Of a DNA stretch of 64,000 nt, positions 25,259 through 41,811 are shown one piece after another; within the stretch, counting starts at the first letter, position 1, and each line of letters starts with the position of its first letter. Where the stretch lies: positions 609 to 64,608 of the forward strand of contig CAZGAU010000005.1 of assembly GCA_964523725.1 (NCBI GenBank). The letters run 5' to 3'. The translations under genes were made by a program, and so were the position numbers. The notes under the pieces were generated by a model that was not told the DNA's origin, did no database searches, and saw only the letters and a program-made list of their open reading frames with translations. This stretch comes from an uncultured Saprospiraceae bacterium (lineage in GTDB: Bacteria; Bacteroidota; Bacteroidia; Chitinophagales; Saprospiraceae).

Positions 25259-25903
25259 CTAAGATCGCTCTACAATACCGGTATTAACTGCATATAAAAC
25301 CAATTCCGAGGAGGTATTCAGATTTAATTTTTTCATAATCTTTTTCCGGTGGGTATATACCGTGTGCGGACTGAGATTTAATTCATCTGCTATCTCCTTG
25401 GCAATCAAGCCTTTGGATATTAGCTTAACGATCTCTATTTCACGAGGCGTAAGTGGAGTAGGGGCGCAGTCTTCGCCTTTAGCGAAAGATTTTTCGAGTA
25501 AATAGTCCAGAACTTTTGTACAAAAGAATTTTTGTCCTCTTGCGGTTGCGTTGATAGCATCTATGATTTCTTCTTCACCGCAGGTTTTGGTAAGGAAGCT
25601 ACTGACACCATGCTCAAGCACGTCGTAAATAGAATTTTTATTATTGTCTTCGCTGATCACCAGAATCCTGGACTTAGGCGAAATATGTTTAATTTGATCC
25701 AGCGTCTTGTGGCTGAAATGCTCCGGATGATTGTAATCAAGAATTACTACCTGCGGCTCGTGGAGCTTCAATTCTTCCAATAACTCTTCTTCATCGCCGG
25801 CTTCTCCCAATACCTCGAATGTGGCAATACCTTCGAGTAGGCGCCTGAGTCCTAGTCGGGTAAGGTATTGAGCATCAGCCAAAACGATGGATATTTGTTG
25901 CAT
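25259..25903 (-). CDS. response regulator, NarL/LuxR-type HTH output
   Basis: Receiver domain (VVILDYN, ILVISED, K in FLTK) plus a LuxR HTH (LTPREIEIVKLISKGLIAKEIADELNLSPHTVYTHRKKIMKKL). Confidence 0.85.
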   Translation of the reverse strand: MQQISIVLADAQYLTRLGLRRLLEGIATFEVLGEAGDEEELLEELKLHEPQVVILDYNHPEHFSHKTLDQIKHISPKSRILVISEDNNKNSIYDVLEHGVSSFLTKTCGEEEIIDAINATARGQKFFCTKVLDYLLEKSFAKGEDCAPTPLTPREIEIVKLISKGLIAKEIADELNLSPHTVYTHRKKIMKKLNLNTSSELVLYAVNTGIVERS

Positions 25904-37191: not shown

Positions 37192-38271
37192 TTACAACTT
37201 AGCCATCCGTTGCCGCAGCCAGTGATCTGCCAGTACCAATGCCGTCATCGCCTCTACGATAGGCACCGCACGCGGGAGCACGCATGGATCGTGCCGTCCG
37301 CGCCCGACTACCGTAACCGCTTCGCCTGCTTCATTCACCGATTCTTGCTCAGGAATGATCGTTGCCACGGGTTTGAATGCTACCCTAAAGTAAATATCCA
37401 TGCCGTTGGAAATACCGCCCTGCACCCCGCCGGAGTGATTGGTGCGGGTTTTGATCAAGCCTTCATCGTTGTAAAACAGGTCATTATGCTCGGAGCCGCG
37501 CAGCGTCACGCCGTCGAAGCCGGAACCGTATTCAAAGCCCTTGGTGGCATTGATGCTCATCATCGCTTTGGCTAAGTCCGCGTGGAGTTTGTCAAAAGCC
37601 GGCTCGCCCAGGCCCGGCGGGCAGCCCTGCACTACACCCGTTACTACACCGCCGATGGTGTCGCCATCCTTGCGCACTGCTTTGATGAGGTCGATCATTT
37701 GTTGTGCCACATCCAGATCGGGGCAGCGTACGTCAGTAGCTTCAATATTATTAAAATCCAATTCCTGATAGCTTTTTTCAACTTTTAAACCGCCCACTTG
37801 ACTCACATAAGCGTTGATCTGAACGCCCTGAGTTTGCAAAAGCAGTTTGGCAATAGCGCCCGCTGCTACGCGTGCCGCCGTTTCCCGGGCAGAGGAGCGC
37901 CCGCCGCCGCGATAGTCGCGAATGCCGTATTTGGCAAAAAAAGTATAATCCGCATGGGAAGGACGGAACTTATCAGCAATGTGGCTGTAATCCCCGGAAC
38001 GCTGGTCGTCATTGTAGATCACCATGGCAATGGGCGTACCCGTGCTTTGTCCTTCAAAAATACCGGACAGAATCTGCACCATATCGCTTTCCTTGCGCTG
38101 GGTTACGATGTTCGATTGTCCCGGGCGCCGCCGGTCGAGTTCTTTTTGAATAAAAGCCTCATCGATCGCTAGGCCTGCCGGGCAGCCATCTATGATAACG
38201 CCAATAGCTTTGCCGTGCGATTCTCCAAAAGTGGTAACCTTGAATACCTGTCCGAAACTATTTCCAGCCAT
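37192..38271 (-). CDS. aroC: chorismate synthase
   Basis: [20 protein letters not shown] and RHDPCV motifs. Confidence 0.95.
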
Positions 38272-38411: not shown

Positions 38412-39005
38412 TTATTCCTTAAGTGCACCTTCAAATTTCGAAGATTCCAGACCTATGTAACGTTCCATTCTTTCCCGAATGAACTTCGCTTCCTCAATAT
38501 TAGGCAGATCTGCTATCAGTTTATGGGTATCACCTGCATATGTCCGAAATTGAACTTCGTAAGTGTAAGTAGAATTTCCCTTGTACCTGCGTTCTTTTGT
38601 AACGACAAAGAATTGCTTTACTGCAGCCCTTACTATATCCTTTTCGCCGCGCCAGAATAGCGGTTTGATCCGCACCCGGATTTCACGGGGATCCACCTCG
38701 ATGATCGTAGTATTTAAACAACCGGCGAGACCAGCGTAGGTAAGATAAAGTCCCATTAAACCGATAAATAAGACGCCAAGCGTCGTTTCAAAAATACCGT
38801 CTTCTTCGCTCGGCAAAGGACGACCCGCCGCAGATTCTATAAATGCATAAGTAAAATATCCCAGCACTAACCCGCCAAGAATCAGGTTCAGAACATAACT
38901 TGGTGTAAACCAGCGGTAAGCAATAGTCATTTGGTAGTTCCCTTCCCGGATGCGGATGCTTTGGGGAGCTTCGGGTGAAAAAGTCGGGCGATCATACGAA
39001 ATCAT
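38412..39005 (-). CDS. hypothetical two-TM membrane protein
   Basis: I prefer the start at the internal ATG (MISYDRP...). The ORF is open to 39140. Confidence 0.45.
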   Translation of the reverse strand: MISYDRPTFSPEAPQSIRIREGNYQMTIAYRWFTPSYVLNLILGGLVLGYFTYAFIESAAGRPLPSEEDGIFETTLGVLFIGLMGLYLTYAGLAGCLNTTIIEVDPREIRVRIKPLFWRGEKDIVRAAVKQFFVVTKERRYKGNSTYTYEVQFRTYAGDTHKLIADLPNIEEAKFIRERMERYIGLESSKFEGALKE

Positions 39006-39150
39006 CGCATGGGTGTTTTGGTTTTTTAAAGTTAGATTCAAGTTATTGATAAACAAGGCTTCGTGCCATTTTTCTCGACGAAAAGAATACAATTTTACGA
39101 CCAATTTGAATAAACGCCCTTCTCTTTTCAAACCCTTCAATACTCCAATT

Positions 39151-39573
39151 CTATCTTTCTATTAACTCCTGATACAATTCCCAGGAACTGCGCTCCACCC
39201 AGCACTCCGCCAGTTTGCCGTCGCGTACCGCCCAGATAGCGATGCCCGTAAAAGAAATCGGCGCACCGTCGGCGGGTAAACCCAGGATGCCATTGTTCTT
39301 GCCCGTGCAGACCCAACGCGATACCACGCGGTCACCCGCAGAATTGGCGAATACCTCCACATTCTCAGTGCGCGCCTCCAGCAGGCGCTCTTGAAACGCC
39401 CGAACCCAATCTTTGAAAGCAGCCCTGCCCACGATCGGCTTGCCGCCGGTGGTGATCACATAATCCTCGGTCATGAGTTCATCGATCGCATTCAGGTCGT
39501 GGACGTGCCCGCCCCACACGCGATTCAGAAATTCCAACGCCAGTTGCGCTGCGGATGATTCCTTGTTTTGCAT
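39151..39573 (-). CDS. SnoaL-like/ester cyclase family protein
   Basis: 140-aa NTF2-like protein starting MQNKESS. The tracked ORF extension to 39807 runs into the repeat array and is probably non-coding. Confidence 0.7.
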   Translation of the reverse strand: MQNKESSAAQLALEFLNRVWGGHVHDLNAIDELMTEDYVITTGGKPIVGRAAFKDWVRAFQERLLEARTENVEVFANSAGDRVVSRWVCTGKNNGILGLPADGAPISFTGIAIWAVRDGKLAECWVERSSWELYQELIER

Positions 39574-39672
39574 GGTGTTTTTTTGAAAAGAACAGCGCGA
39601 GGAGGGAGGATGGTTGAAGGAGGCTCCGCTCTTTTCATTTGATATCCTTTGAGACCTATATATTCCTGTTCT

Positions 39673-39925
39673 ATAATTCGACATTGCCCTTCCAGATAGG
39701 AACATTGCCTCATTAGACGGCAACTTTACTATCTGGAATAGGAAATTTGACTTGTCAGATAGCAAATTTGCTATGCCGGGAGTCATTTTTCCTATTCGAA
39801 GAGTCAAATTTGATACTCAAAGAGTCAATGTTGATAGGTGGGGTAGGAATGTTCCTCTGTAGCATAGCAACATTGCTTCGCTGGATAGCAACGTTGGGTA
39901 GAAAAGGGGAAAAGTTGACTTAGCT
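39673..39925. repeat. degenerate tandem array, about 12 units of 20-22 bp, many with NNAAnnTTNN dyad cores
   Basis: Units start near 39673, 39694, 39715, 39735, 39757, 39778, 39798, 39819, 39840, 39861, 39883 and 39904. Cores include ATAGCAAATTTGCTAT (16-bp perfect palindrome, 39759-39774), TCAAATTTGA, TCAATGTTGA, AGGAATGTTCCT, AGCAACATTGCT and CAACGTTG. Confidence 0.8.
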
Positions 39926-39931
39926 GGGAAC

Positions 39932-40333
39932 TTATTGCACCCAATTCTCAACTTTCAGGTTAGGGACTCGTCTAAACTCTCTTTCATTATTCGTGACAAT
40001 TGTGATATCCAGACTTTTAGCGTGAGCCGCAATGAGCATATCTAAAGCGCCAATCGGTTGTCCCGTTTTTTCAAGGTGGACACGCAATTCGCCATAAACT
40101 ACTGACGCCTCATAATCAAACTCCACAATTTCAAGCGGAATTAAAAACTGTTGCAGCGCCTGTTGATTTTTTTCTGGCTGTGTGCTTTTGGCAACGCCAT
40201 ATTGCAACTCCGACAAAGTAATAGTGGAAATGCCTACATCGCCAAGGGGCAGTGATTGAAAGCGTTCGAGCACCTCAACCGGTTTTTTCTTGATGATGTA
40301 AATACAAGTATTGGTATCGAGTAGATATTTCAT
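39932..40333 (-). CDS. vapC: type II toxin, PIN-domain VapC
   Basis: MKYLLDTNTCIYIIK... with conserved acidic residues (D6, E43-like, D97-like) and TNNEREF near the C-terminus. 133 aa. Confidence 0.85.
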   Translation of the reverse strand: MKYLLDTNTCIYIIKKKPVEVLERFQSLPLGDVGISTITLSELQYGVAKSTQPEKNQQALQQFLIPLEIVEFDYEASVVYGELRVHLEKTGQPIGALDMLIAAHAKSLDITIVTNNEREFRRVPNLKVENWVQ

Positions 40334-40569
40334 TAGTCAAGCGATTCACGTTCTTGTTGGGCGGGCTGATCGCGGTCATCCATAAAATCCGGCGTGAAGT
40401 TGTTCAGACTTTCAAAAAGGCTCTGCCAGGGATTGTGAAAAGGAATGACATATAAAGTATTACCAAGCTTGCGCAGATATACTTTATCATCGGCAATCTT
40501 CATCCGCTCGGGTATGCGAATGATTTGAGCGCCGTTGGTCTGTTGAATGTCTATGGCTTCGAAGGTCAT
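40333..40569 (-). CDS. vapB: type II antitoxin, AbrB/SpoVT-like VapB
   Basis: 78 aa with an N-terminal swapped-hairpin-like GAQIIRIPERM motif. The stop overlaps the vapC start (TAATG). Confidence 0.75.
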   Translation of the reverse strand: MTFEAIDIQQTNGAQIIRIPERMKIADDKVYLRKLGNTLYVIPFHNPWQSLFESLNNFTPDFMDDRDQPAQQERESLD

Positions 40570-40591
40570 TGGCTTTTATTTTCTTTCAAAA

Positions 40592-40614
40592 CAAAGATAA
40601 CAAAAAGAACGTTC
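40592..40614 (-). promoter_or_regulatory. putative vapBC promoter -7 box (TATCTTTG) with an adjacent GAACGTTC dyad
   Basis: On the minus strand, TATCTTTG (40592-40599) fits the Bacteroidetes TAnnTTTG -7 consensus about 23 nt before the vapB ATG. The perfect 8-bp palindrome GAACGTTC lies at 40607-40614. Confidence 0.35.
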
Positions 40615-40627
40615 CGTGCGCGGGTAG

Positions 40628-40783
40628 GGGCGAGCTTTAGTCGCCCGTGTAATATTTAGTCGCTCTCCCGTTTTAATCGAGTCTCTTGCAAAGGACTCGA
40701 TTGGGTAGGATGTGTTGTGGGATATGATACTACATTGCCGAGTCCCGCCACGCGCAGGCTTGGGCGCGGGAGACTCGGCGGGG
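40628..40783. other. three GC-rich stem-loops between the TIR-like gene stop and vapB
   Basis: A: GGGCGA (40628-33) with TCGCCC (40641-46). B: AATCGAGTC (40675-83) with GACTCGATT (40694-702). C: GCCGAGTC (40737-44) with GACTCGGC (40772-79), with an inner CGCGC/GCGCG pairing and an alternative CCCGCC/GGCGGG pairing. Confidence 0.7.
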
Positions 40784-40794
40784 ACGGAAATGAT

Positions 40795-41811
40795 TTATTT
40801 TGAAATAAGATTTGAGTTTTTTATTTCTTTTTGCAATTCATACTTCCATCCACGATTACTATCAATATTAATATATATCAAACCTGAAACATCACTGGGC
40901 ATTTCGACACCTTTATCTACAAGAATAATAGTCCTGCTGCGTCCTAATTTTGCCAAAAAGTAGCCAAGTTCTAAAATAACATTTTGTCTAGCTCTGGGTC
41001 TTAGGTCTTTTATATCATTATAATTCTTTATGCTACCTATATCGTCGCCTGTAAGTAAAATGATTGCATGCATAGCTTCAGAAGCAGCCTTTTCAAATTT
41101 TTCGATTAACGTTTGTCCTTCATTTGGGCGCTCATGAAGAATAATTGATTTAATTCCTAGTTCATTTTCTACAAACCTGGCGACTTCAAATTTAATGCTA
41201 CTGTCATGACCATGAACAATAAATACCTTATCTGGAATTGGACTTGTAGCTGTGCTTGAAAAAGATACATTCCCAAAATAATCTGGAAGATCATTATAAA
41301 GAATTTTTTCTACTTTTCCTGAGATTTCTAAAGCCCTTTCAGATTGAGGTTCAATTTCTAGCATCGCTTTTTTAGAAGATTCTTCTAAAATATTATACTT
41401 GTCGCCAGGGATCAAACGACTACTTTTTAGAACACTATCATATGTATCTCGTGAAATAATTTCTAACGCCTTTTTATTGGCTCCAGATTTAAGTACAACC
41501 GCAAAAACGGTAAGATTAGCACTTAATTCACATAATAAACCTACATTGTTATCATGTAAAACATTCAAATCTTTAGCGATTACGATGCTTAAATCCCTTG
41601 CTTTATCCCATATTCTACCATCATCTGCATGTTTTTCAAGATTATTAAGCATCGTAATATTATCAGATTCTTCAATGTTTAGTTTTTTTGCTATGATTTT
41701 AATATGATTCTGGATAATTTTTGCACTGTCATAATGTTTACGTTCTAATAAAGAAGCATATCGAATTATTTCAATTCCTAAATTAAAAGCCAAGCCGTAA
41801 TTCTGATTCAT
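40795..41811 (-). CDS. TIR-like domain protein (Cap12/PycTIR-type, PF10137-like C-terminal domain) with an uncharacterised helical N-terminal domain
   Basis: aa ~195-325 read KVFIVHGHD...HAIILLTGDD...RARQNVILELGYFLAKLGRSR...EMPSDVSGLIY. The N-terminal ~190 aa have no motif I recognise. The gene is strongly AT-rich relative to its neighbours. Confidence 0.75.
   Translation of the reverse strand: MNQNYGLAFNLGIEIIRYASLLERKHYDSAKIIQNHIKIIAKKLNIEESDNITMLNNLEKHADDGRIWDKARDLSIVIAKDLNVLHDNNVGLLCELSANLTVFAVVLKSGANKKALEIISRDTYDSVLKSSRLIPGDKYNILEESSKKAMLEIEPQSERALEISGKVEKILYNDLPDYFGNVSFSSTATSPIPDKVFIVHGHDSSIKFEVARFVENELGIKSIILHERPNEGQTLIEKFEKAASEAMHAIILLTGDDIGSIKNYNDIKDLRPRARQNVILELGYFLAKLGRSRTIILVDKGVEMPSDVSGLIYINIDSNRGWKYELQKEIKNSNLISK

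What the first reader, a model, noticed from the sequence alone, without database searches (positions are those of the whole stretch)
39673..39925. About 12 degenerate 21-22 bp tandem units with self-complementary cores that vary between units
Directly downstream of vapC and upstream of the SnoaL-like gene, the DNA is periodic at 20-22 bp, about two helical turns. Most units carry a core of the form N2-3 AA nn TT N2-3. Examples: ATAGCAAATTTGCTAT (16-bp perfect palindrome, 39759-39774), TCAAATTTGA (perfect), TCAATGTTGA, AGGAATGTTCCT, AGCAACATTGCT and CAACGTTG (perfect 8-mer). The outer bases differ between units (GC..GC, TC..GA, GG..CC, AGC..GCT, AGG..CCT) yet stay self-complementary. No intact ORF spans the array. 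TAG stops are frequent on the plus strand, and the minus-strand ORF entering it (to 39807) gives only a weak heptad pattern. This is not a CRISPR array, because there are no conserved repeats alternating with unique spacers. Possible explanations are an iteron- or centromere-like protein-binding array left from a mobile element, phased operator or decoy sites, or a decayed 7-aa-repeat coding region.
Basis: seen in the sequence. Interest (0 to 1): 0.65.

Follow-up and report, generated by a model that had tools for sequence, protein, structure and literature searches.

The report
Phased palindrome array beside defence genes
Between a toxin-antitoxin operon and a SnoaL-like gene, a Saprospiraceae chromosome carries ten to twelve 21-bp units, each an imperfect copy of one palindrome; the array is non-coding and evolves more slowly than neutral sites, and it most likely binds a still unidentified dimeric DNA-binding protein along one face of the helix.

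Summary
The array is real. Twelve units lie in exact 21-bp register (39671-39922), and the lag-21 autocorrelation is the strongest periodic signal in the 64-kb window (z about 8). The unit is dyad-symmetric, with consensus GATAGCAA-nn-TTGCTATC.

It is not coding. Every frame has stops, substitutions show no codon bias, orthologues differ by a 1-nt indel, and no bacterial repeat protein matches.

It is under constraint. Against the orthologous array in L183, units 2-11 differ at 7.6% of sites, compared with about 26% at fourfold sites and 22% in flanking intergenic DNA. Core columns are the most constrained.

Arrays with the same motif and phasing lie 3' of a candidate defence operon (PDC-M62) in Marinifilum fragile and two metagenome contigs. 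Their interiors cannot be aligned between orthologous loci.

Best reading: a phased same-face array of operator-like sites for a dimeric protein. An Lrp/AsnC-like protein is a lead, from the half-site and the two-turn spacing. The binder is unidentified, and I found no description of this family in the limited searches I ran.

The parts
39692..39901 (.). Core of the array: units 2-11, ten 21-bp units. Consensus cnaGATAGCAActTTGCTatG, a 7-2-7 dyad with invariant AA..TT.
   Evidence: Register and column counts. Dyad symmetry r = 0.878. Only 16 of 210 sites differ from the orthologous array in L183, against about 26% at fourfold sites.
39671..39691 (.). Unit 1, the degenerate boundary unit on the SnoaL side.
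   Evidence: Matrix score 2.3. 6 of 21 sites differ from L183, about the neutral rate.
39902..39922 (.). Unit 12, the degenerate boundary unit next to the vapC stop.
   Evidence: Matrix score 7.6. 6 of 21 sites differ from L183.
39759..39774 (.). Best site: the perfect 16-bp palindrome ATAGCAAATTTGCTAT in unit 5.
   Evidence: Sequence. Highest matrix score, 16.6. The same 16-mer occurs in the L200 array. In L183 it carries one change in an arm, so palindromy is not strictly kept.
39932..40569 (-). vapB (40333-40569) and vapC (39932-40333). VapB is an AbrB-type antitoxin and VapC a PIN-domain toxin. The array starts 9 bp after the vapC stop.
   Evidence: ORFs. PF01850 PIN. Homologues named tRNA(fMet)-specific endonuclease VapC.
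39151..39573 (-). SnoaL-like (ester cyclase, NTF2-fold) gene on the same strand. Its start lies 98 bp beyond unit 1.
   Evidence: PF07366 and PF12680.
39574..39670 (-). Spacer between the array and the SnoaL start. It evolves at about the neutral rate, except for roughly the last 50 nt before the ATG, which are also kept in L188.
   Evidence: 23 of 103 sites differ from L183. Alignment and deletion variant.

Best explanation
The array is a cis-acting DNA element. It holds ten well-kept and two decayed copies of one imperfect 16-18-bp palindrome (GATAGCAA-nn-TTGCTATC), set exactly two helical turns apart so that all sites face the same side of the helix.

Inferred mechanism: each unit binds one homodimer of a sequence-specific DNA-binding protein. 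Neighbouring dimers contact each other, which builds a long cooperative and probably DNA-wrapping nucleoprotein complex of about 210-250 bp. This complex sits at the 3' boundary of a toxin-antitoxin or defence operon. Its likely effect is to control or block transcription across that boundary: read-through from vapBC into the SnoaL-like operon here, and convergent transcription in the Marinifilum-type loci.

The binder is not encoded next to the array. An Lrp/AsnC-type protein is the best lead. The half-site TAGCAA matches E. coli Lrp yAGhAw, the centre is A/T-rich, the sites are clustered and imperfect, and the spacing is two turns.

Shown: periodicity, dyad symmetry, non-coding nature, purifying selection, and a shared motif in unrelated loci. 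Inferred: protein binding, the identity of the protein, and the effect on transcription.
For: The periodicity is exact and far beyond chance. The unit profile equals its own reverse complement (r = 0.878, 0 of 2000 shuffles). There is no covariation of the arms, as expected for double-stranded sites of one dimer rather than hairpins.

Purifying selection against L183: units 2-11 differ at 16 of 210 sites, fourfold sites at 84 of 324 (p = 5.5e-8), and flanking intergenic DNA at 30 of 134 (p = 1.4e-4). Core sites differ at 5 of 120 and spacer sites at 11 of 90 (p = 0.036). No substitution falls in columns 7, 8, 10-12, 14 or 15.

The window-derived matrix finds 11, 11 and 6 sites at multiples of 21 (+/-1) bp in the arrays of L183, L200 and L289, with few hits elsewhere in those loci. 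Marinifilum fragile carries about 14 such units. L200 shares 59 bp (78%) with window units 3-5. In L188/L189 a deletion leaves 3 units, and one remnant has lost an otherwise invariant A.

Literature: Lrp-family targets are clusters of imperfect palindromes with an A/T-rich centre, spaced two or three helical turns apart, with DNA wrapping (PMC2995911). The Lrp consensus is yAGhAwATTwTdCTr (PMC5554404). Six BvgA dimers bind inverted heptads at 22-bp spacing (PMC7250471).
Against: No binding experiment exists, and no candidate protein is encoded next to any array. No AsnC/Lrp gene was found among the 43 window ORFs scanned with Pfam; 15 of the 58 candidate ORFs were not scanned.

The match to Lrp came after I compared many consensus sequences from memory, and the two half-sites sit 1 bp closer together than in E. 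coli Lrp. Ten to nineteen sites is more than described Lrp or BvgA targets carry.

No single sites of the motif occur in promoters elsewhere in the window. All ten top hits lie inside long ORFs, so there is no sign of a regulon.

Spacer columns are also constrained (11 of 90, p = 0.007 against fourfold sites), which simple site recognition does not require. Array interiors cannot be aligned between orthologous Marinifilum-type loci although the flanks are 72-87% identical. A static operator does not predict that.
Confidence: 0.5

Rival explanations
1. The array is a recombination or cassette-boundary element. Its repeated palindromes, with an 8-2-8 layout like serine-recombinase crossover sites, serve as crossover points. 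These could act site-specifically or simply through repeat homology, and they would let defence or toxin-antitoxin cassettes and their neighbours be exchanged.
For: L200 and L296 are 86.6% identical up to the first two units, unalignable through the array, and 72% identical beyond it. The last 300 nt of the HNH gene are 95% identical and the next 131 nt are 97.7% identical, although the whole HNH protein is only 63% identical. In L183 against L188, fourfold divergence is 0.118 in vapC but 0.288 in the SnoaL-like gene (p = 0.04). The L188 deletion ends in a TCAAC half-site. The region between aroC and MutS2 is a variable island.
Against: No recombinase gene lies next to any array. Any repeat array attracts unequal crossing-over, so mosaic boundaries may be a consequence rather than the function. 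The low substitution rate and core-biased constraint between the window and L183 point to sequence-specific recognition, which the binding model already covers. The central dinucleotides differ between units, which would block most serine-recombinase exchanges.
Confidence: 0.15
2. The array works as RNA: a string of small hairpins in the 3' UTR of vapBC or the 5' UTR of the SnoaL-like gene. Such an RNA could act as a protein sponge, a stabiliser, or a type III-like antitoxin for the PIN toxin.
For: Both strands fold much better than shuffles (z = -6.0 and -5.2). The array abuts the vapC stop with no terminator-like site. One homologous unit is a perfect palindrome with different arms in L183 (GATGGCAA/TTGCCATC) and L200 (GACCCCAA/TTGGGGTC).
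Against: There is no covariation in 38 units or within arrays. By my own hand count from the pair lists, G-T and A-C mismatches are about equal (9 and 7), so neither strand is favoured. Substitutions between the window and L183 break the best predicted hairpins, in units 4-6. A 2-nt centre cannot form a loop, so stems would be only 4-6 bp. Good folding is automatic for palindromic repeats. There is no Rfam match. The same array family occurs where there is no vapBC. Clustered changes that perfect a palindrome can arise from template switching (established knowledge).
Confidence: 0.1
3. The array is an iteron or centromere-type array derived from a plasmid or phage. It is either a relic, or it is kept by the host as a decoy that titrates an invader's Rep, Par or repressor protein.
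For: Unit length, phasing and copy number resemble iteron control arrays and sopC (12 repeats, each with a 16-bp inverted repeat; PMC3177203). A metagenomic Rep_3 plasmid (L227) has five 21-bp iterons containing ATAGGAAATTTG. The arrays sit in defence islands. Homologous units occur in unrelated contexts.
Against: No rep or par gene was found among the 43 window ORFs scanned (15 candidate ORFs were not scanned) or beside the other arrays. There is no similarity in 72,556 plasmids or 50,697 phages. A viral scan for a perfect site plus a phased neighbour gave only 5 isolated coding hits. Units are symmetric, whereas iterons bound by Rep monomers are directional. Units are only about 55% alike. 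The L227 match was forced by the search pattern.
Confidence: 0.1
4. The array is a decayed, or still active, coding region for a protein with 7-residue repeats.
For: 21 = 7 codons. The + frame starting at 39680 stays open for 61 codons and reads x-[N/K]-[I/F/V]-[A/D]-x-x-x. The core AGC AAC ATT GCT (S-N-I-A) is the same 12-mer that encodes NTSNIAT heptads in phage fibres and adhesins. In Marinifilum fragile a 175-codon ORF is called across the array.
Against: Stops occur in all six frames. Substitutions against L183 fall 11, 9 and 8 in the three codon phases. A 1-nt indel lies inside the array between orthologues, and L200 has three phase shifts. In Marinifilum five ORFs of 55-175 codons on both strands cover the array, so openness is a by-product of the motif. 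That ORF has a stop at codon 15 in L200. A search of 1.84 billion proteins found only AHNAK-like eukaryotic repeats and translated satellites.
Confidence: 0.03
5. The array is a neutral minisatellite with no function.
For: Neighbouring units resemble each other (6-8; 4-5; 10-11), as expected after local duplication. One lineage lost nine units without losing the flanking genes.
Against: Divergence is three times lower than at neutral sites, and lowest in the core. The motif is shared by distant Bacteroidota.
Confidence: 0.03

Closest known systems
Lrp/AsnC-family (feast/famine regulator) multi-site targets
   Same: Clusters of imperfect palindromes with an A/T-rich centre, adjacent sites on the same helix face two or three turns apart, and cooperative dimers or octamers that wrap DNA (PMC2995911). 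The half-site TAGCAA fits E. coli Lrp yAGhAw (PMC5554404).
   Different: The half-sites lie 1 bp closer together than in the E. coli consensus. There are 10-19 sites instead of about 2-6. The array sits at the 3' end of a defence or toxin-antitoxin operon, not at the promoter of a metabolic gene. No Lrp gene was identified and binding is untested.
BvgA (NarL/FixJ family) promoter arrays of Bordetella, such as Pptx and Pfha
   Same: Head-to-head dimers bind inverted heptads with centres every 22 bp on one helix face. Up to six mostly weak, degenerate sites work together (PMC7250471).
   Different: Those arrays abut the -35 element of an activated promoter. Here no promoter could be placed, and in the Marinifilum-type loci the array lies between convergent genes. 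The sequence differs. A NarL-type regulator exists in the window (25259-25903) but nothing links it to the array.
F-plasmid sopC and other tandem-repeat centromeres (parC of R1 and pSK41)
   Same: About a dozen direct repeats, each carrying an inverted repeat bound by a dimer, located downstream of an operon (sopC: 12 x 43 bp with a 16-bp inverted repeat; PMC3177203).
   Different: There are no partition genes. The period is 21 bp, not 43. Units are degenerate. The setting is chromosomal.
Plasmid iterons and iteron control arrays (Rep_3 type; P1 incA from memory)
   Same: Units of 19-22 bp in helical phase, 5-9 or more copies, and arrays that can act by titration. Example with a Rep_3 gene: L227.
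   Different: Iterons are directional, nearly identical to each other, and lie next to rep. These units are symmetric, about 55% alike, and have no rep gene nearby.
Toxin-antitoxin operators (vapO of enteric vapBC; Rickettsia felis VapBC2 operator)
   Same: AbrB-type VapB dimers read roughly 10-bp pseudo-palindromes, and hetero-octamers bind two of them (PMC3326315; PMC3378870). The array lies beside vapBC.
   Different: Operators overlap the promoter upstream of vapB, number two, and lie 14 bp apart in R. felis. The conserved GGAACGTTC palindrome in this vapB promoter resembles the array no more than chance allows. Other vapBC cassettes lack the array, and the same array family occurs without vapBC.
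Type III toxin-antitoxin RNA repeats (ToxI and relatives; from memory)
   Same: A non-coding tandem repeat lies next to a toxin gene in a defence context.
   Different: ToxI-type units are about 34-45 nt, precede the toxin gene, and pair with ToxN-type RNases. Here units are 21 bp, follow a type II pair, and show no RNA covariation.

Membership tests
Lrp/AsnC-type binding-site cluster | (Semi)palindromic sites with an A/T-rich centre | tested here: met
   Consensus GATAGCAA-nn-TTGCTATC. AA and TT are at least 90% conserved in 38 units. Dyad symmetry r = 0.878.
Lrp/AsnC-type binding-site cluster | Clusters of imperfect sites spaced two or three helical turns apart on one face | tested here: met
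   12 units at exactly 21 bp. The criterion comes from PMC2995911.
Lrp/AsnC-type binding-site cluster | Match to a determined Lrp consensus (yAGhAwATTwTdCTr) | tested here: inconclusive
   The half-site TAGCAA fits yAGhAw, but the halves are 1 bp closer together (14 against 15 bp). The comparison was post hoc.
Lrp/AsnC-type binding-site cluster | Bound by an Lrp/AsnC protein | not testable with these tools
   No AsnC gene was found among the window ORFs scanned. The rest of the genome is not available.
Plasmid iterons | Tandem 17-22-bp units in helical phase | tested here: met
Plasmid iterons | Next to the cognate rep gene or origin; units nearly identical and directional | tested here: not met
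   No rep gene found. Units are about 55% alike and symmetric. No plasmid match.
Tandem-repeat centromere (sopC/parC type) | Adjacent parA/parM and parB/parR genes | tested here: not met
   Pfam scans of neighbouring ORFs show none.
CRISPR array | Conserved repeats alternating with unique spacers, period about 60-75 bp | tested here: not met
   The period is 21 bp, no repeat/spacer split appears in the unit alignment, and no cas-type domain appears in the Pfam scans run.
Type III toxin-antitoxin RNA repeats | Repeats of about 34-45 nt upstream of a ToxN/CptN/TenpN-type toxin, with conserved RNA structure | tested here: not met
   Units are 21 bp and lie downstream of a type II vapBC pair. No covariation and no Rfam hit.
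vapBC operator (vapO) | Inverted repeats overlapping the vapB promoter and similar to the array motif | tested here: not met
   The array is 3' of vapC. The promoter palindrome scores 4.9, a value reached by 0.2% of window positions, so about a 40% chance in 230 bp. The array is absent from other vapBC cassettes.
Protein-coding heptad repeat | Open frame, codon-biased substitutions, homologous proteins | tested here: not met
REP/BIME-type dispersed palindromes | Many dispersed intergenic copies in the genome | tested here: not met
   Outside the array the ten best matrix hits all lie inside long ORFs. Only 64 kb of the genome could be examined.
NarL/BvgA-type activator array | Inverted heptads every 21-22 bp, with the last site abutting the core promoter | tested here: inconclusive
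   The architecture is met. No Bacteroidota-type promoter (TAnnTTTG, consensus from memory) could be placed between the array and the SnoaL-like start by reading the sequences.

The most novel reading that the evidence does not exclude
These arrays may be a so far undescribed class of cis element tied to defence islands of Bacteroidota. Each is a long phased array (10-19 units) of one conserved palindrome at the 3' edge of a toxin-antitoxin or candidate defence operon (vapBC here, PDC-M62 in Marinifilum). Under this reading the array works as part of the immune locus. It could be a titration or decoy platform for an invader-encoded DNA-binding protein (Rep, partition protein or repressor), or a nucleation site that silences or insulates the toxic operon. 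Rapid unit turnover between strains would then reflect an arms race.
Probability: 0.15. Interest if true: 0.8.

Novelty: new variant of a known kind. Interest (0 to 1): 0.5.

Why it matters
Phased multi-site operators are well known, but two features set this case apart. First, the array is unusually long and is demonstrably under selection. Second, the same motif recurs next to defence or toxin-antitoxin operons in two distant Bacteroidota lineages, Saprospiraceae and Marinifilum, with no cognate protein encoded nearby.

Non-coding parts of defence islands are hardly charted. A conserved cis element there would offer a handle on how toxic immune genes are insulated, silenced or exchanged. It would also name a testable DNA motif for an unknown Bacteroidota DNA-binding protein.

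If the array proves to be only an Lrp-type operator cluster for the SnoaL-like operon, it is an ordinary regulatory region of unusual size.

Tried and rejected
- Tandem Repeats Finder sees only 2.3 units. Autocorrelation was needed.
- Rfam found nothing relevant.
- A strong sigma-70-like promoter match on the + strand (TTGAGA-17-TATAAT, 39649-39677) points into the array. It is not kept in L183 (TTGTAA...TACCAT), and Bacteroidota use a different promoter type (from memory), so I dropped it.
- Synteny through the SnoaL-like gene failed: the closest outside homologue (L002, 83%) has no array.
- The four-unit KSAANNTT scan of viral contigs returned mainly high-identity coding repeats.
- The two-unit metagenome scan returned mostly unrelated iterons, duplications and a eukaryotic contig. 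Only L200 was a true relative.
- The idea that VapB binds the array was tested through the conserved GGAACGTTC palindrome in the vapB promoter. The similarity is not significant.
- Proteins next to other 21-bp arrays (203 aa in L007/L045, 119 aa in L202/L243, 155-160 aa in L200/L289/L296) show no significant similarity to each other and have no homologue in the window.
- The protein search with the translated array hit only AHNAK-like and satellite translations.
- Plasmid, phage and viral searches were empty or gave chance hits.
- One literature search with match 'anywhere' was wasted. The FitAB half-site TGATAGCA, which resembles GATAGCA, remains an unverified memory and is not used as evidence.
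- I compared many operator consensus sequences from memory (PurR/LacI, FNR, Fur, ArsR, MarR/SlyA, CopY, IHF, Fis, sigma-54, ECF sigma). None fits the 7-2-7 spacing.

Full report
**1. What is in the sequence**

All genes around the finding lie on the minus strand:
- aroC, 37192-38271
- a 242-codon ORF of unknown function, 38412-39140
- a SnoaL-like gene, 39151-39573
- vapC (39932-40333) and vapB (40333-40569)
- a TIR-domain gene, 40795-41811

MutS2 follows on the plus strand. The 358-bp gap between the SnoaL-like gene and vapC holds the array.

Written in rows of 21 from 39671, twelve units line up without a single gap. The lag-21 autocorrelation of a 275-bp window is 0.547. The mean over the whole 64 kb is 0.275 (sd 0.034), and this is the highest value for any lag from 5 to 60 anywhere in the window. 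Lag 42 at the same place ranks second. A four-unit degenerate pattern matches 4 times against 0 in 100 shuffles. A thirteenth 'unit' overlaps the vapC stop and is not one.

**2. The unit**

For units 2-11 the consensus is cnaGATAGCAActTTGCTatG. The unit profile correlates 0.878 with its own reverse complement at a single offset (null 0.39 +/- 0.09; 0 of 2000 shuffles). Each unit is therefore an imperfect copy of one 7-2-7 palindrome with an A/T-rich centre. The array is a direct tandem of dyad-symmetric sites two helical turns apart.

It does not hold. Within-unit complementarity is 27 of 72 pairs, no higher than when right arms are dealt out among units (29.6 +/- 4.5). In 38 units from four arrays, 65.4% of cells pair against 66.0 +/- 1.7% in shuffles, and there is no excess covariation.

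**3. Organism and locus**

aroC relatives place the window in Saprospiraceae, Bacteroidota. In more distant Saprospiraceae (L014, L015) MutS2 lies directly beside aroC. The stretch from the 242-codon ORF to the TIR gene is therefore a 3.9-kb variable island. The TIR gene matches the PADLOC candidate defence family PDC-S35.

**4. Orthologous arrays and selection**

VapC homologues led to three related lineages with the same gene order.

L183-L186 carry the full array. Between the window and L183:
- Fourfold-degenerate sites of vapB, vapC, the SnoaL-like gene and aroC differ at 84 of 324 positions.
- The intergenic DNA on either side of the array differs at 30 of 134, which does not differ significantly from the fourfold rate (p = 0.48).
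- Units 2-11 differ at only 16 of 210 (p = 5.5e-8 against fourfold sites; p = 1.4e-4 against flanking DNA).
- Core columns 7-18 are the most constrained, at 5 of 120 against 11 of 90 in the spacers (p = 0.036).
- Columns 7, 8, 10-12, 14 and 15 carry no change.
- The two boundary units evolve at about the neutral rate.

Substitutions fall 11, 9 and 8 in the three codon phases. L183 also has a 1-nt insertion between units 8 and 9 that L188 shares. The constraint therefore acts on nucleic acid, not on a protein.

L188/L189 have lost nine units through a deletion between two TCAAC motifs. The three remaining units include a change at an otherwise invariant A. This is a weak hint of relaxed constraint once the array is short.

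**5. Not coding**

- All six frames contain stops.
- The longest open stretch (61 codons, + strand) translated and searched against 1.84 billion proteins hit only AHNAK-like vertebrate repeats and translated satellites.
- The core 12-mer AGCAACATTGCT also encodes S-N-I-A in NTSNIAT heptads of phage fibres and adhesins. That resemblance is coincidental.
- In Marinifilum fragile a 175-codon ORF was called across a related array. Five ORFs on both strands cover that region, and the same ORF stops at codon 15 in L200.

**6. Not evidently RNA**

Both strands fold far better than shuffles (z = -6.0 and -5.2), but that is automatic for palindromic repeats. Four further points argue against RNA:
- There is no covariation.
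- By my own hand count from the pair lists, G-T and A-C mismatches are about equal, so neither strand is favoured.
- Substitutions between orthologues break the best predicted hairpins.
- There is no Rfam match.

One homologous unit is a perfect palindrome with different arms in L183 and L200. A single template-switch event can produce such clustered changes (established knowledge), and the overall tests are negative.

**7. A family beyond this locus**

A two-unit pattern scan of metagenomes returned mostly unrelated iterons and duplications. One example is a Rep_3 plasmid with five identical 21-bp iterons.

L200 is different. It carries about 19 units at 21/22-bp spacing, and 59 bp of it are 78% identical to window units 3-5. 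Its neighbour led to L289 and to Marinifilum fragile (L296), which have 12 and about 14 units of the same motif. The window-derived matrix finds 11 (L200) and 6 (L289) sites at multiples of 21 (+/-1) bp in those arrays, with few hits elsewhere in the loci.

In all three loci the array lies about 150 bp 3' of a two-gene ATPase/HNH operon that matches PADLOC candidate system PDC-M62, a Septu-like system. It faces a convergent 155-160-codon gene. The recurring context is therefore 'just downstream of a toxin-antitoxin or defence operon', not 'upstream of a SnoaL-like gene'.

Between these orthologous loci the flanks are 72-87% identical, but the array interiors cannot be aligned. The identity level also changes across the array (95-98% on one side, about 72% on the other). 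Point substitution is slow, but whole units turn over and recombination junctions fall in the array.

**8. Who binds?**

No candidate is encoded beside any array.
- VapB is the only DNA-binding protein adjacent in the window. The conserved palindrome in its own promoter (GGAACGTTC, kept in five cassettes) resembles the array no more than chance allows. More distant vapBC cassettes lack the array, and the Marinifilum-type arrays have no vapBC.
- The ten best matrix hits elsewhere in the window all lie inside long ORFs.
- Plasmid, phage and viral collections hold nothing similar.

Among described systems, the architecture fits multi-site targets of oligomerising dimeric regulators best:
- Lrp/AsnC-family targets are clusters of imperfect palindromes with an A/T-rich centre, spaced two or three helical turns apart, with wrapped DNA (PMC2995911). 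The E. coli Lrp half-site yAGhAw equals TAGCAA (PMC5554404), although the halves here are 1 bp closer together.
- BvgA places up to six dimers on inverted heptads every 22 bp (PMC7250471).

These are resemblances, not tests. The Lrp match was found after many comparisons from memory.

**9. Verdict**

Its 'compensated palindrome' element is not. The array is a selected, non-coding, dyad-symmetric, helically phased element, and it belongs to a small family found beside defence or toxin-antitoxin operons in distant Bacteroidota.

The best-supported mechanism is cooperative same-face binding of a dimeric DNA-binding protein that forms a large nucleoprotein complex at an operon boundary (confidence about 0.5). 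An Lrp/AsnC-type binder is a lead.

A role as a recombination junction, an RNA role, an iteron or decoy role, a coding remnant and neutrality are ranked below it, for the reasons given. The family is a new variant of a known kind. Its link to defence islands is the part most worth following up.

Noticed in passing
L007:6963-7200 and L045:9165-9500: Two other Saprospiraceae carry a different degenerate 21-bp-phased array (11-16 units; cores GGGAnnTCCC and CTGGrG..CCCAG). It lies 210-270 bp upstream of a homologous 180-203-codon gene with no significant Pfam domain (74% identity between the two). The arrays have diverged almost completely but keep the period.
   Followed up: partly
window 40570-40790 (upstream of vapB); L187:4403-4650: A roughly 190-bp hairpin-rich, G+C-rich element precedes vapB. 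It ends in a conserved leader (GGAACGTTC palindrome plus TATCTTTG). In L187 it occurs again immediately after vapC, in front of the next gene. The leader is also kept in a distant cassette (L191). It looks like a portable promoter/operator module of island cassettes.
   Followed up: partly
window 38412-41811; L183, L185, L187, L014, L015: The aroC-MutS2 interval is a variable island. It holds a TIR gene (PDC-S35) in the window, a 90-codon ORF in L183-L186 and an EAD11-domain gene in L187, and nothing in L014 and L015.
   Followed up: partly
L200:1551-1681; L296:5030-5160: The 131 bp between the HNH gene and the array are 97.7% identical in L200 and Marinifilum fragile, and the last 300 nt of the HNH gene are 95% identical, although the whole HNH proteins are only 63% identical. 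The stretch contains three small hairpins, two of them with CACTCCA(A)GTG. It is either a recent recombination tract or a conserved non-coding element.
   Followed up: partly
window 39649-39677 (+): A near-consensus sigma-70-type promoter match (TTGAGA-17-TATAAT, 11 of 12) points into the array, antisense to vapC. It is not conserved in L183.
   Followed up: yes
window 39151-39807 (-): The SnoaL-like reading frame stays open for 78 codons upstream of its ATG, into the array. In L183 the intergenic length differs by 4 nt, so the extension is not conserved.
   Followed up: yes
L202:6955-7100 and L243:267-539: Metagenome contigs carry 6 to 13 or more units of GAGTATAGCAAGATCGCTAAA (21 bp) about 90 bp upstream of a 104-119-codon gene. 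In L243 a gene with a type I restriction HSDR_N domain lies nearby.
   Followed up: partly
L014:7786-8000: In a distant Saprospiraceae the short MutS2-aroC intergenic region holds five (A)TTTGCC motifs about 9-12 bp apart. They resemble the right half of the array unit.
   Followed up: no
window 25259-25903 (-): A NarL/FixJ-type response regulator (receiver plus GerE HTH) lies 14 kb from the array. The family binds 7-2-7 sites, but nothing links it to the array.
   Followed up: no
L110, L131, L134, L137, L177 (viral contigs): Long fibre- or adhesin-like ORFs have NTSNIAT heptad repeats encoded by 21-bp repeats. Their core (AGCAAYATTGCT) is the same 12-mer as the array consensus.
   Followed up: yes
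L045:8001-9051: In this long-read assembly aroC matches in three pieces in different frames. These are probably assembly indels, so reading frames in L045 are unreliable.
   Followed up: no
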